DNA of 45,262 bases, taken from the NCBI GenBank assembly GCA_003252195.1, contig QKFK01000194.1, positions 1 to 45,262 of the forward strand, written 5' to 3'. A program made the position numbers and the translations under genes. Shown piece after piece: positions 43,560 through 44,585 of this stretch (position 1 is the first letter of the stretch; each line of letters starts with the position of its first letter). The DNA comes from Rhodospirillales bacterium. GTDB taxonomy: Bacteria; Pseudomonadota; Alphaproteobacteria; QKFK01; SZUA-500. A model generated the notes under the pieces. That model saw nothing but the letters and a program-made list of their open reading frames with translations, had not been told where the DNA came from and did no database searches.

Positions 43560-44585
43560 TTAGCAACTACCATAAGAGCAACTAGCTGAATATGAGGCGT
43601 TCGAATAACAAGTACATGATTTATAGCTTGAGTTATATGAACATGTTGAAGCTGTATATCCAGTATCACAAGATGTTTCTGTGTATCCTGCTTCACTACA
43701 TTGCTGAGCCGTATCAGTATGACATGCTACTGCAGTGCATTTTAAATATGCGCTGTTATATGGGCATATGCCTGCTAAGCTGTATCCAGATGAGCAATAT
43801 CCTTGAAGGTCTTCAGGTGGCTCGTAATCATATCCAGCGAGAATACATTGTTGGGCCGTATCTGTGTGGCAATCTGTGTGGCAAGTAGCTGCTTCTGAGT
43901 AACATGAGTCACACATATAATAGCTTGAACTGTATGCGCAAACAGAGCCTAAGCTATAGCCTGTTGGGCAATCATTGGATGATGTTGCTGTATATCCACT
44001 TGCTGTGCACACAGTAGCGGCTGACGCACATGACACGTATGAACTATTATAAGGGCATATTGAGCCTAAGCTATACCCACTTGAACCCGTTGGGCAATCA
44101 TTAGATGTTAGTGCTGTATATCCAGCATCAGTGCATTGTTGTATAGTGTCTGTGTGGCAGTTTGAGTAGCAAGTACATTTTTTATATGTCGAATTATAAG
44201 AGCAACTTGCTGTTGTGTAACCTGTAGCACAAGATGTTGCTGTATATCCAGCGTCAGCACATTGTTGAACTGTGTCAGTGTGGCATGTATCTACGAACGC
44301 GTGGCAATTGCTATAGCAATTTTCAAGAGTTGCGCCTGATGTGTCGCCTGAACTATCCGTTTTTGTGCCGATCATTCCACCTAAATATTGTAGCCTTGCT
44401 GTTTGGCGGCCAGTGATGGATTTGTCTGGGGTAAGTGAGCTTTTGTAATTAAGAGGAGAATCATTATCTTTAGCAGGGATGTCTAGTTTTATTAGTTCTG
44501 CTTCGCTTGAACTTCCGGATAAAACTATACCACCAGCAATGCATAGTAGAGATAGAGGGTACATTTTAGTGTGTTCTTTTGCCAT
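43560..44585 (-). CDS. Exported cysteine-rich repeat protein (five modules of about 45 aa, CHTDTxQQC...AGYT...C.TGY...C.YNS.Y..C)
   Basis: 341 aa. AGGAGA lies 7 nt upstream of ATG 44585. The N-terminal signal-like segment is MAKEHTKMYPLSLLCIAGGIVLSGSSS. By my count there are 32 Cys after the signal region. Cys, Ser, Thr, Tyr, Gly and Ala dominate and Lys/Arg are nearly absent. The repeats are also visible at the DNA level. Confidence 0.7.
   Translation of the reverse strand: MAKEHTKMYPLSLLCIAGGIVLSGSSSEAELIKLDIPAKDNDSPLNYKSSLTPDKSITGRQTARLQYLGGMIGTKTDSSGDTSGATLENCYSNCHAFVDTCHTDTVQQCADAGYTATSCATGYTTASCSYNSTYKKCTCYSNCHTDTIQQCTDAGYTALTSNDCPTGSSGYSLGSICPYNSSYVSCASAATVCTASGYTATSSNDCPTGYSLGSVCAYSSSYYMCDSCYSEAATCHTDCHTDTAQQCILAGYDYEPPEDLQGYCSSGYSLAGICPYNSAYLKCTAVACHTDTAQQCSEAGYTETSCDTGYTASTCSYNSSYKSCTCYSNASYSASCSYGSC

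What the first reader, a model, noticed from the sequence alone, without database searches (positions are those of the whole stretch)
43560..44585. Novel-looking modular cysteine-rich exported protein (CHTDTxQQC repeats)
After a signal-like N-terminus and a linker of about 60 aa, the protein breaks into five related modules:
- M1: CHTDTVQQCADAGYTATSCATGYTTASCSYNSTYKKCTCYSN
- M2: CHTDTIQQCTDAGYTALTSNDCPTGSSGYSLGSICPYNSSYVSC
- M3 (lacks the CHTDT head): CTASGYTATSSNDCPTGYSLGSVCAYSSSYYMCDSC
- M4: CHTDCHTDTAQQCILAGYDYEPPEDLQGYCSSGYSLAGICPYNSAYLKC
- M5: CHTDTAQQCSEAGYTETSCDTGYTASTCSYNSSYKSCTCYSN...

M1 and M5 are the closest pair, and M2, M3 and M4 share the C(P/S)(T/S)GYSLGx(I/V)C variant, so the arrangement is A-B-B'-B-A. 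I count 32 Cys in the mature part. This even number is compatible with 16 disulfides.

His-Thr-Asp and Tyr/Ser/Thr positions are invariant, and basic residues are almost absent. I know of no named domain with this signature.

Candidate roles are a disulfide-knotted surface or adhesin protein, a metal-binding (Cys/His) protein, or a multi-core precursor or substrate for the adjacent enzymes.
Basis: seen in the sequence. Interest (0 to 1): 0.65.

Follow-up and report, generated by a model that had tools for sequence, protein, structure and literature searches.

The report
Exported cysteine-rich repeat protein, unnamed family
This is a real gene for an exported, disulfide-rich protein made of five copies of a small cysteine module that no database names but that recurs in at least about 150 other bacterial protein clusters. 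Its function is untested, and it sits in front of four phage-type nucleotidyltransferase genes.

Summary
ORF 43560-44585 (-) encodes 341 aa with a signal-like N-terminus, five related modules and 32 Cys after the signal. Every module pair beats composition-preserving shuffles (z 7.7-19.9). The sense frame is under purifying selection, and the antisense ORFs are what the codon composition predicts.

Pfam, NCBIfam, PADLOC, PHROGs and PDB sequence searches give no significant match, and a fold search of the module model finds nothing. The module is not unique, however. A profile of it finds 155 protein clusters among 1.84 billion (29 at E<1e-10). Most listed hits have a signal-like N-terminus and a shared N-terminal motif, and some carry long C-terminal regions. 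AlphaFold2 predicts each module as a short helix plus a beta-hairpin.

The CH(T/S)(D/N) connectors mark a small subfamily, in which nearly every mature His follows a Cys. This subfamily is seen so far only in low-GC contigs, at least one from the same hydrothermal-vent run.

The four downstream genes are divergent, catalytically intact Pol-beta nucleotidyltransferases of phage family phrog_36119. They are probably co-transcribed. Nothing shows that they modify this protein.

Best reading: a Sec-exported, disulfide-stapled rod-like envelope or surface protein. Metal binding and nucleotidylylation remain open. A multi-core RiPP precursor is unlikely.

The parts
43560..44585 (-). CDS of the 341-aa cysteine-rich exported protein (stop codon included)
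   Evidence: ORF list and translation. Compared with the P0002 gene, nucleotide differences by codon position are 0.33/0.31/0.57, and NG86 gives dN 0.41 and dS 3.0.
44592..44597 (-). Shine-Dalgarno AGGAGA, 6 nt before the ATG
   Evidence: Upstream sequence printed.
44731..44760 (-). Sigma-70-like promoter match (TTGATT-18-TATAAT), about 146 nt upstream of the ATG. This is a consensus match only.
   Evidence: The region has no more such matches than shuffles do, so this is weak evidence.
44499..44585 (-). Residues 1-29: signal-peptide-like N-terminus (MAKEHTKMY / PLSLLCIAGGIVL / SGSSSEA). There is no lipobox, because Leu precedes Cys15.
   Evidence: Sequence and hydropathy. The same segment is conserved in P0002-P0005. 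P0032 has no Cys at this position.
44364..44411 (-). Residues 59-74, GRQTARLQYLGGMIGT: subfamily-conserved N-terminal motif. I read it as the counterpart of the A[AS]VxF[IL] motif that precedes the modules in the wider family.
   Evidence: Alignments, and the upstream segments of about 110 family members. The equivalence of the two motifs is my inference.
44301..44318 (-). Residues 90-95, CYSNCH head connector. C-Y-S-N-C is invariant in the subfamily.
   Evidence: Invariant columns C90 Y91 S92 N93 C94.
44169..44285 (-). Module M1 (residues 101-139)
44022..44159 (-). Module M2 (residues 143-188)
43902..44027 (-). Module M3 (residues 187-228), which lacks the CHTDT head
43731..43883 (-). Module M4 (residues 235-285), with a doubled CHTD-CHTD head
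43608..43724 (-). Module M5 (residues 288-326), the closest copy of M1
43563..43607 (-). C-terminal tail YSNASYSASCSYGSC (residues 327-341), with two further Cys
   Evidence: A similar tail is present in P0002.
42751..43566 (-). Nucleotidyltransferase paralogue 1. The TTG at 43566 overlaps the stop of the Cys-rich gene. The alignment suggests the true start may be the ATG at 43530.
   Evidence: G[SG]...DxD plus a third Asp. phrog_36119 at E 2e-16 over the full length.
41986..42747 (-). Nucleotidyltransferase paralogue 2
41120..41911 (-). Nucleotidyltransferase paralogue 3. It is 66% identical to the third paralogue of locus L001 and is the one that was modelled.
40369..41130 (-). Nucleotidyltransferase paralogue 4, overlapping paralogue 3 by 11 nt
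40109..40137 (.). 13-bp-stem hairpin with flanking T and A runs, between the convergent ppiD gene and the last nucleotidyltransferase gene. It is the only terminator-like site between 40050 and 45160, so the five genes look like one transcription unit.
   Evidence: The sub-threshold Rfam matches at this spot are due to the hairpin.

Best explanation
The gene encodes a Sec-exported, acidic (pI about 4.4, about 33 kDa mature), non-enzymatic protein that folds in the periplasm into a string of five small disulfide-stapled modules.

Each module has four conserved Cys (C..xG[YF]...C.......C.Y[ND]S.Y..C). It is predicted to be a short helix packed on a two-stranded beta-hairpin, with two disulfides likely per module.

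Short C[HY][ST][DN] connectors join the modules. They supply the other 12 Cys, which could form further disulfide staples or Cys/His metal sites.

The module belongs to a widespread but unnamed family found in proteins with signal-like N-termini. In longer relatives, 2-10 modules lie between a conserved N-terminal motif and long C-terminal regions. A few of those regions are weakly Lcl_C-like, and others look beta-helix-like to me. On that basis I read the modules as a rigid, protease-resistant stalk or scaffold of envelope or surface proteins.

The window protein is a 'stalk-only' member. It would therefore be either a structural envelope component or a protein whose modules bind the ligand themselves.

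Shown: the gene, the repeats, selection on the sense frame, family membership, and the absence of any named domain.

Inferred: export, disulfide formation, the stalk or scaffold role, and co-transcription with the nucleotidyltransferase genes.
For: - Real gene. It has a Shine-Dalgarno sequence and an ATG. The third codon position is the most variable, with dN 0.41 against dS 3.0 versus the P0002 gene.
- The repeats exceed what composition gives.
- Family. A 40-position module profile finds 155 clusters at E<1e-3, 29 at E<1e-10 and 5 at E<1e-30 among 1.84 billion representatives. I extracted 213 distinct full-length module instances and 95 tandem pairs.
- In nearly all listed members the modules lie near the N-terminus, after a signal-like segment and an A[AS]VxF[IL] motif. 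Many proteins then continue for 200-500 further residues.
- Weak Lcl_C matches occur C-terminal to the modules in 6 of 89 members.
- P0032 and P0090 share the window protein's N-terminus and CYSNCH connector, then carry about 400-500 extra residues.
- AlphaFold2 model of residues 88-190 (63-row alignment): mean pLDDT 71, with 75-84 in the module cores. Each module is a helix plus a hairpin.
- The host is a Gram-negative alphaproteobacterium with BamA, Lpx genes, SecG and PpiD in the same window. An oxidising periplasm is therefore available.
Against: - No signal-peptide predictor was run, and there are no expression or proteome data. No RNA run was found.
- The protein shows no outer-membrane anchor, lipobox or recognisable secretion signal. 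'Surface' versus 'periplasmic' is therefore open.
- The Lcl_C matches in relatives are all below Pfam's gathering score (best 32.9 against 34.9 bits). The beta-helix reading of other C-termini is by eye only.
- The model has moderate confidence (pTM 0.39), and I could not read its coordinates to check disulfide geometry.
- The close subfamily members come from low-GC contigs, at least one from the same metagenome run. They may be paralogues of one genome.
- This reading explains neither the CH connectors nor the nucleotidyltransferase array.
Confidence: 0.5

Rival explanations
1. Metal-binding protein. The Cys-His connectors (CYSNCH, CHTD, CHTDCHTD) form Cys/His sites that bind or buffer Zn, Cu, Fe or Ni in the periplasm of a vent bacterium. 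The modules serve as the scaffold.
For: All 6 His of the mature protein directly follow a Cys (0.6 expected by chance). The figure is 11 of 12 in P0002 and 5 of 5 in P0004. There are no CH dipeptides in five sampled members of the wider module family. CH[ST][DNE] units occur in tandem in relatives, for example CHSNCHTNCHTD. The DNA comes from hydrothermal-vent metagenome runs.
Against: There is no match to any metal-binding family. In P0003 and P0005 the head connector is CYSNCY, so the His is not invariant. An even Cys count fits full disulfide pairing equally well. No metal-handling genes lie nearby.
Confidence: 0.15
2. Dedicated substrate of the four downstream nucleotidyltransferases. These would attach NMP (or a phospho-alcohol) to Tyr, Ser or Thr of the unfolded precursor before export. 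The four divergent paralogues would serve different module types.
For: The five genes are tightly packed, with no terminator-like site until 40109-40137. The same order (Cys-rich gene, then at least three paralogues) is seen at L001. The word-seeded search of 5.8 billion proteins returned only L001, fragments of the window's own genes and two phage proteins. The only non-phage copies found are therefore at these two loci. All paralogues keep G[SG], DxD and the third Asp. The protein is 28% Ser+Thr and 9% Tyr. From my own knowledge, Pol-beta-fold enzymes that nucleotidylylate protein Tyr exist (GlnE, GlnD, DrrA, MntA of HEPN-MNT).
Against: Adjacency is the only link, and the two loci are not independent. 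L001 sequence is in the same run and has the same GC. Subfamily members at L002 and L003 have no such gene next to them. The wider module family keeps the same Tyr, Ser and Thr without these enzymes, so those residues are probably structural. The enzyme family is phage-borne (phrog_36119), and its phage loci hold no Cys-module gene. The enzymes have no signal peptide, so they would have to act before Sec export.
Confidence: 0.1
3. Secreted toxin or bacteriocin-like protein, followed by an array of divergent intracellular protective proteins, as in arrays of orphan immunity genes.
For: A secreted protein is followed by 3-4 highly divergent tandem paralogues (26-35% identical to each other). A cI-like HTH regulator lies upstream at L001 and L002, and the paralogues have phage affinities.
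Against: There is no toxin domain, and the protein consists only of modules shared with many large exported proteins. The paralogues keep intact catalytic residues, which is not typical of binding-type immunity proteins. No secretion-system genes are in the window.
Confidence: 0.04
4. Multi-core RiPP precursor, whose modules would be excised and modified.
For: The cores are repeated, the sequence is rich in Cys, Ser and Thr, and GG dipeptides lie in the N-terminal region (LSLLCIAGG, YLGGMIGT).
Against: No RiPP-class enzyme, protease or ABC exporter is encoded among the annotated neighbours, which are PpiD, TpiA, SecG, PyrG, KdsA-like, enolase and Lpx genes. The hydrophobic N-terminus looks like a Sec signal rather than a leader. 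The module is predicted to be a folded domain and occurs in 300-760-aa proteins next to other domains.
Confidence: 0.03
5. The region is not a gene in this frame, and the antisense ORFs 43592-43888 and 44234-44416 are the real genes.
For: Both antisense ORFs exist.
Against: The longest antisense open stretch (100 codons) lies within the codon-shuffle expectation of 74 +/- 21, and 10% of shuffles reach it. The sense frame shows third-position variability and dN much lower than dS. Homologues conserve the Cys pattern in the sense frame.
Confidence: 0.01

Closest known systems
Unnamed 4-Cys module family defined here (profile A3; for example P0006, P0012, P0013, P0014, P0017, P0022)
   Same: The same module: C..xG[YF]..(T)SC..(6-12)..CPY[ND]S.Y..C. 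It occurs in tandem arrays of 2-10 near the N-terminus of proteins with signal-like N-termini, after a conserved N-terminal motif.
   Different: The window protein and its few close relatives add C[HY][ST][DN] connectors with Cys-His dipeptides and an extra CxC after the fourth Cys. Their N-terminal motif has a divergent form. The window protein has nothing after the modules.
Legionella collagen-like protein Lcl and other DUF1566/Lcl_C proteins
   Same: The general plan seen in some relatives is signal peptide, repeat region, then a C-terminal Lcl_C-like region. Lcl is described as an extracellular adhesin that recognises sulphated glycosaminoglycans (abstract of PMC11162425, listed).
   Different: From my own knowledge, Lcl's repeat region is collagen-like rather than cysteine modules. 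The Lcl_C matches in relatives are below Pfam's cut-off. The window protein has no such domain.
Small disulfide-stabilised helix-plus-hairpin domains (cysteine-stabilised alpha-beta toxins, beta-defensins)
   Same: The predicted module is a short helix plus a two-stranded hairpin held by disulfides.
   Different: The only PDB fold matches are beta-defensin-1 at E 7-9 and probability 0.06, which is not significant. The PDB profile search gives only a chance hit at E 0.17. The Cys spacing also differs.
Chlamydial cysteine-rich envelope proteins OmcA/OmcB (own knowledge)
   Same: These are Cys-rich exported proteins thought to stiffen a Gram-negative envelope through disulfides.
   Different: There is no sequence relationship. 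The Pfam scan at E<=1 is empty.
phrog_36119 phage nucleotidyltransferases (for the four neighbour genes)
   Same: All four paralogues give full-length profile matches at E 1e-13 to 1e-16. The AlphaFold2 model matches predicted structures of uncultured Caudovirales proteins at TM 0.61-0.69 and E 1e-10 to 1e-12.
   Different: Here they are chromosomal, in a tandem array of four very divergent copies next to an exported protein gene. The phage family itself has no known function.
Protein-nucleotidylylating Pol-beta enzymes (MntA of HEPN-MNT, GlnE, GlnD, DrrA; own knowledge)
   Same: The same superfamily signature, G[SG]-x(9-13)-DxD plus a third carboxylate.
   Different: The only similarity is a marginal MNT match at E 0.14. 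No HEPN partner is present. The PDB fold matches are generic (CdnE, TUT7, GLD-2, Pol lambda) at TM about 0.2.

Membership tests
Unnamed 4-Cys helix-hairpin module family (defined here) | Four Cys with the pattern C-x2-x-G-[YF]-x(3-11)-C-x(6-12)-C-x-[YQ]-[NDS]-x-x-[YF]-x(2,3)-C | tested here: met
   All five window modules fit the pattern. The profile, which was seeded partly from them, also recovers 155 other clusters.
Unnamed 4-Cys helix-hairpin module family (defined here) | Signal-like N-terminus, with the modules placed N-terminally after an A[AS]VxF[IL]-type motif | tested here: inconclusive
   The signal-like segment is present. The window has K/R-x-A-[KR]-x3-LGGMIGT where relatives have the motif. 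Their equivalence is inferred, not demonstrated.
Lcl / DUF1566 adhesins (Pfam PF07603) | Lcl_C domain above Pfam's gathering score | tested here: not met
   The window protein has no Pfam hit at E<=1. Relatives reach at most 32.9 bits against a 34.9 cut-off.
RiPP multi-core precursor | A neighbouring RiPP-class maturation enzyme (YcaO, LanB/C/M, radical SAM, etc.) and a leader protease or exporter | tested here: not met
   The neighbours are four Pol-beta nucleotidyltransferases and housekeeping genes.
RiPP multi-core precursor | Short unstructured core peptides released from the precursor | not testable with these tools
   The model predicts folded modules. Release would need peptidomics to test.
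Bacterial lipoprotein | Lipobox [LVI][ASTVI][GAS]C at the end of the signal peptide | tested here: not met
   The sequence is L-S-L-L-C, with Leu at -1. The Cys is absent in P0032.
Autotransporter or outer-membrane beta-barrel protein | C-terminal beta-barrel domain with a terminal aromatic residue | tested here: not met
   The protein ends ...CSYGSC directly after module 5 and has no Pfam barrel domain.
Metallothionein-like or Cys/His metal-binding protein | Demonstrated metal occupancy of Cys/His clusters | not testable with these tools
   Only the CH-dipeptide enrichment is shown. There is no match to a metal-binding family.
Pol-beta nucleotidyltransferase superfamily (neighbour genes) | hG[GS]-x(9-13)-Dh[DE]h plus a third acidic residue on the next strand | tested here: met
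   G79, D91, D93 and D135 (numbering of paralogue 1) are invariant in seven sequences. Pfam NTP_transf_2, Polbeta and MTPAP matches are weak. The model shows an alpha/beta core plus a helical C-terminal half at pLDDT 82.
phrog_36119 (neighbour genes) | Full-length match to the family profile | tested here: met
   E 2e-16, 2e-14, 2e-13 and 2e-15 over about 230 of 247 profile positions.
CBASS CD-NTase or other known defence nucleotidyltransferases (neighbour genes) | Match to a defence-system model, with an adjacent effector | tested here: not met
   PADLOC gives only marginal PDC matches (E 1e-3 or weaker). CdnE fold matches have TM about 0.24. No effector gene is present.

The most novel reading that the evidence does not exclude
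The exported Cys/Tyr/Ser/Thr-rich protein is the dedicated substrate of an array of four divergent, phage-derived Pol-beta nucleotidyltransferases. These would nucleotidylylate it before export. The product would be a previously unknown kind of nucleotide-decorated, Cys/His-connector envelope protein in an uncultured vent alphaproteobacterium.
Probability: 0.07. Interest if true: 0.85.

Novelty: new variant of a known kind. Interest (0 to 1): 0.4.

Why it matters
Cysteine-rich tandem modules are a common way to build rigid extracellular stalks, but this module has no entry in Pfam, NCBIfam or the PDB. It nevertheless recurs in at least about 150 protein clusters from uncultured bacteria, so it deserves a family definition and a structure.

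The window's subfamily adds two oddities that can be tested directly. The first is a set of connectors in which essentially every histidine follows a cysteine. The second is a probably co-transcribed array of four divergent nucleotidyltransferases from a phage family of unknown function.

If the enzymes act on the protein, that would be a new type of protein modification on an exported substrate. If the connectors bind metal, it would be a new periplasmic metal-binding design from a metal-rich habitat. If neither holds, the finding is simply one more uncharacterised envelope repeat protein.

Tried and rejected
- Curated family scans of the protein were all empty: Pfam at E<=1, NCBIfam, PADLOC and PHROGs. 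NCBIfam on ten relatives gave nothing relevant.
- PDB sequence searches with the subfamily alignment, with the 63-row module-pair profile and with P0090 gave only chance hits.
- A Foldseek search of the module model against the PDB gave only beta-defensin at E 7.
- The word-seeded search of 5.8 billion proteins found just five relatives. A repeat with the module-pair profile gave seven short fragments. The exhaustive HMMER search was what revealed the family.
- Searches of genome contigs and metagenome contigs with the subfamily alignment returned pattern matches but no confirmed relative. One alignment was too divergent to be used at all.
- I used the second genome scan on ParE to place the organism.
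- No RNA-seq run holds the gene.
- Rfam found nothing in the 500-nt upstream spacer.
- Literature searches for the motifs, the assembly accession, phrog_36119 and cysteine-rich/nucleotidyltransferase/RiPP combinations found nothing relevant.
- Readings I rejected: lipoprotein, autotransporter, RiPP precursor, real antisense genes, and the eukaryotic decapeptide-repeat hits P0019 and P0095, which match only the C.DAGF part of the profile.
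Full report
**1. What is there**

The minus-strand ORF 43560-44585 encodes 341 aa. It starts at ATG, 6 nt after an AGGAGA Shine-Dalgarno sequence.

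The product has 33 Cys. One is at residue 15, in the hydrophobic N-terminal segment, and 32 lie from residue 90 onwards. CHTD occurs at residues 101, 143, 235, 239 and 288.

Residues 100-341 are dominated by S, T, C, Y and A, with 4 K and no R. The mature protein would be about 33 kDa with pI about 4.4.

The N-terminus (MAKEHTKMY-PLSLLCIAGGIVL-SGSSSEA) has the n/h/c layout of a Sec signal peptide. Small residues sit at -3 and -1 before E30. This is my reading plus a hydropathy profile, since no predictor was available. It is not a lipobox, because Leu is at -1 and the Cys is absent in relative P0032.

**2. Are the repeats more than composition?**

Yes.
- All ten pairwise module alignments score above every one of 500 shuffles of the partner module (z 7.7-19.9).
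- M1-M5 is the closest pair (194), then M2-M3 (133) and M2-M4 (128).
- M1 and M5 are also a 128-nt direct repeat at 75% DNA identity.

**3. Is it a gene, and in this frame?**

I compared it with the closest relative's gene (P0002, locus L001).
- 305 aligned codons differ at positions 1, 2 and 3 in proportions 0.33, 0.31 and 0.57.
- Nei-Gojobori gives dN 0.41 and dS 3.0, the latter saturated.
- The longest antisense open stretch is 100 codons. Shuffling the codon order gives 74 +/- 21, and 10% of shuffles reach 100.

**4. Named families**

Pfam (E<=1), NCBIfam, PADLOC and PHROGs return nothing for the protein. PDB sequence searches with the subfamily alignment and with a 63-row module-pair profile give only chance hits.

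**5. It is not an orphan**

The word-seeded search of 5.8 billion proteins found only five relatives. I then aligned 19 modules from those proteins (A3) and ran the profile exhaustively against 1.84 billion cluster representatives. This gave:
- 155 proteins at E<1e-3;
- 29 at E<1e-10;
- 5 at E<1e-30.

Two of the listed hits (P0019, P0095) are eukaryote-like decapeptide repeats that match only part of the profile, and I discount them.

From the rest I extracted 213 distinct full-length module instances and 95 tandem pairs. The consensus is x-x-D-[TN]-x-x-x-C-x-x-x-G-[YF]-x-x-T-S-C-(6-12)-C-P-Y-[ND]-S-x-Y-x-x-C.

Typical members have:
- a signal-like N-terminus;
- a motif of the type A-[AS]-V-x-F-[IL]-[TGP], in short members directly after the predicted signal cleavage site;
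- 2-10 modules;
- often 200-500 further residues.

Six of 89 scanned members have a weak Lcl_C (DUF1566) match C-terminal to the modules. All are below Pfam's gathering score, the best being 32.9 against 34.9 bits. Others have long Asn/Ser/Gly/Thr-rich C-termini that look beta-helix-like to me. That was not confirmed.

One member carries a source name, an Alphaproteobacteria MAG.

**6. Predicted fold**

I ran AlphaFold2 on residues 88-190 (head connector, M1 and M2) with the 63-row tandem-pair alignment. It gave mean pLDDT 71 and pTM 0.39. The first 13 residues are disordered and the module cores reach 75-84.

Each module is a short helix (T105-A112 in M1, containing the first core Cys) followed by a two-stranded hairpin. 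The third core Cys directly follows the first strand and the fourth lies in the second strand.

Foldseek against the PDB finds nothing significant. I could not read the coordinates, so the disulfide connectivity is not established. Two disulfides per four-Cys core is an inference.

**7. What is special about the window's subfamily**

P0001-P0005, P0032, P0090 and P0080 share several features:
- an N-terminal segment SL(S/L)xxCxAGG...SG;
- a motif K/R-x-A-[KR]-x3-L-G-G-h-I-G-T;
- an invariant C-Y-S-N-C;
- connectors of the form C-[HY]-[ST]-[DNE], sometimes in tandem, for example CHSNCHTNCHTD.

In the window protein all 6 mature His follow a Cys, where 0.6 would be expected. The figure is 11 of 12 in P0002 and 5 of 5 in P0004. 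The five sampled members of the wider family have none.

The 12 non-core Cys all lie in these connectors or in the head and tail. P0032 and P0090 have the same N-terminus but continue into 400-500-residue C-terminal regions. The window protein is therefore a short, modules-only form.

**8. Provenance caveat**

The window is from a low-GC (36%) alphaproteobacterium. Its ParE is 66-67% identical to those of uncultured, mostly gut or rumen Alphaproteobacteria, and 61-66% identical to those of Rhodospirillales. The window also carries BamA, LpxB, LpxI, SecG, PpiD, PyrG, TpiA and enolase.

Its DNA is found in hydrothermal-vent metagenome runs. Contigs of those same runs that partly overlap the gene continue into sequence identical to L001, the P0002 locus. 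L001-L003 have the window's GC content, 35-37%.

The close 'homologues' may therefore be paralogues in one genome or genes of co-occurring relatives. They still show selection on the frame. They are not independent phylogenetic replicates, however, and the subfamily is so far known from essentially one habitat.

**9. The neighbours**

Four genes at 40369-43566 (-) follow the Cys-rich gene with gaps of about -7 to 74 nt and one 11-nt overlap. The only terminator-like site is the 13-bp hairpin at 40109-40137, shared with the convergent ppiD.

They are paralogous Pol-beta nucleotidyltransferases. G[SG], DxD and a third Asp are invariant, and the Pfam matches are weak.

They are only 26-35% identical to each other. 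Paralogue 3 is 66% identical to the third paralogue at L001, so the array predates the split of the two loci.

All four match phage family phrog_36119 over its full length. An AlphaFold2 model (pLDDT 82) matches predicted structures of uncultured Caudovirales proteins at TM 0.61-0.69. Against solved structures it matches only generically, to CdnE, TUT7, GLD-2 and Pol lambda.

The two more distant sequence relatives lie on phage contigs, one with terminase and portal genes and one with Thy1 and a SAM lyase. Those contigs encode no Cys module.

At L001 the Cys-rich gene is followed by three paralogues before the contig ends. At L002 and L003 it is not. L001 and L002 share a homologous cI-like HTH gene, divergently placed upstream. 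In the window the contig ends 677 nt upstream, with no such gene in that space.

**10. Interpretation**

The best-supported reading is a Sec-exported, disulfide-stapled, rod-like envelope or surface protein built from a widespread but unnamed module. In larger relatives that module appears to act as the stalk between an N-terminal motif and C-terminal regions. Export, oxidation and the stalk role are inferences from anatomy and family architecture.

This reading does not explain the Cys-His connectors, for which metal sites or extra staples are both possible. It does not explain the nucleotidyltransferase array either.

That the enzymes modify the protein is possible. Pol-beta enzymes that nucleotidylylate protein Tyr are known (own knowledge). 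However, the idea rests only on adjacency at two non-independent loci. The conserved Tyr, Ser and Thr are kept throughout the wider family without such enzymes, and the enzyme family's home is in phages that lack the module.

A RiPP precursor is unlikely. There is no maturation machinery, the N-terminus looks like a Sec signal, and the modules are predicted to fold. The antisense alternative is rejected.

**11. Verdict**

This is a divergent subfamily of an undescribed cysteine-module family, not a one-off and not a member of any named family. Interest is moderate. It would rise sharply if the nucleotidyltransferases or the Cys-His connectors prove to act on or through this protein.

Noticed in passing
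window 40369-43566 (-): A tandem array of four very divergent (26-35% identical) but catalytically intact Pol-beta nucleotidyltransferases belonging to phage family phrog_36119. In the word-seeded search of 5.8 billion proteins, the only other non-phage copies are at L001. Their function is unknown.
   Followed up: partly
runs X1/X2 laid on window 43632 and 44285; L001 positions 1688 and 2294: Contigs from the same hydrothermal-vent run continue from the window's gene into sequence identical to L001, the P0002 gene. The closest 'homologue' therefore co-occurs in the same sample and may be a paralogue in the same genome.
   Followed up: partly
about 110 family members listed (e.g. P0106, P0111, P0107, P0101); window residues 59-74 (nt 44364-44411): A conserved motif of the type A-[AS]-V-x-F-[IL]-[TGP] precedes the modules across the wider family. 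In short members it comes directly after the predicted signal cleavage site. It could be a sorting or anchoring element, and I know of no name for it.
   Followed up: no
window residues 104-106, 146-148, 242-244, 291-293 (module heads): The D-T-[V/I/A] at each module head coincides with the three-residue O-glycosylation sequon D(S/T)(A/I/L/V/M/T) known from Bacteroidetes (own knowledge). The host here is alphaproteobacterial, and the D-T may simply cap the helix.
   Followed up: no
L001 86-547 (-) and L002 512-979 (-): Homologous cI/HTH_3-type regulators (34% identical) lie divergently upstream of the Cys-rich gene at two loci. No such gene is seen in the window before its end.
   Followed up: partly
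window 44586-45087 and 45088-45262 (-): A 500-nt AT-rich spacer lies upstream of the gene, with no Rfam match. At the contig end is the C-terminal 57 codons of an unidentified minus-strand gene (…MDKRQSVIDDKYGVEAMIKKCSKVDGKNKTAQIMKLIDSK), which is not similar to the L001 regulator.
   Followed up: partly
window 44836-45092: Minor-variant contigs in runs X1/X2 carry several substitutions, a 1-nt deletion at 45018 and a form that skips 31 nt (45060-45092), all in the upstream spacer. This indicates strain heterogeneity there. X3 shows three A>G variants inside the gene (44259, 44268, 44313).
   Followed up: no
L004 1284-3278 (+): The 664-aa gene next to the P0006 gene also contains one module (E 2e-6). 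Module proteins can therefore be clustered.
   Followed up: no
window 40109-40137: A perfect 13-bp-stem hairpin flanked by A and T runs sits between the convergent ppiD gene and the last nucleotidyltransferase gene. It is probably a bidirectional terminator, and it produces spurious sub-threshold Rfam leader and sRNA matches.
   Followed up: yes
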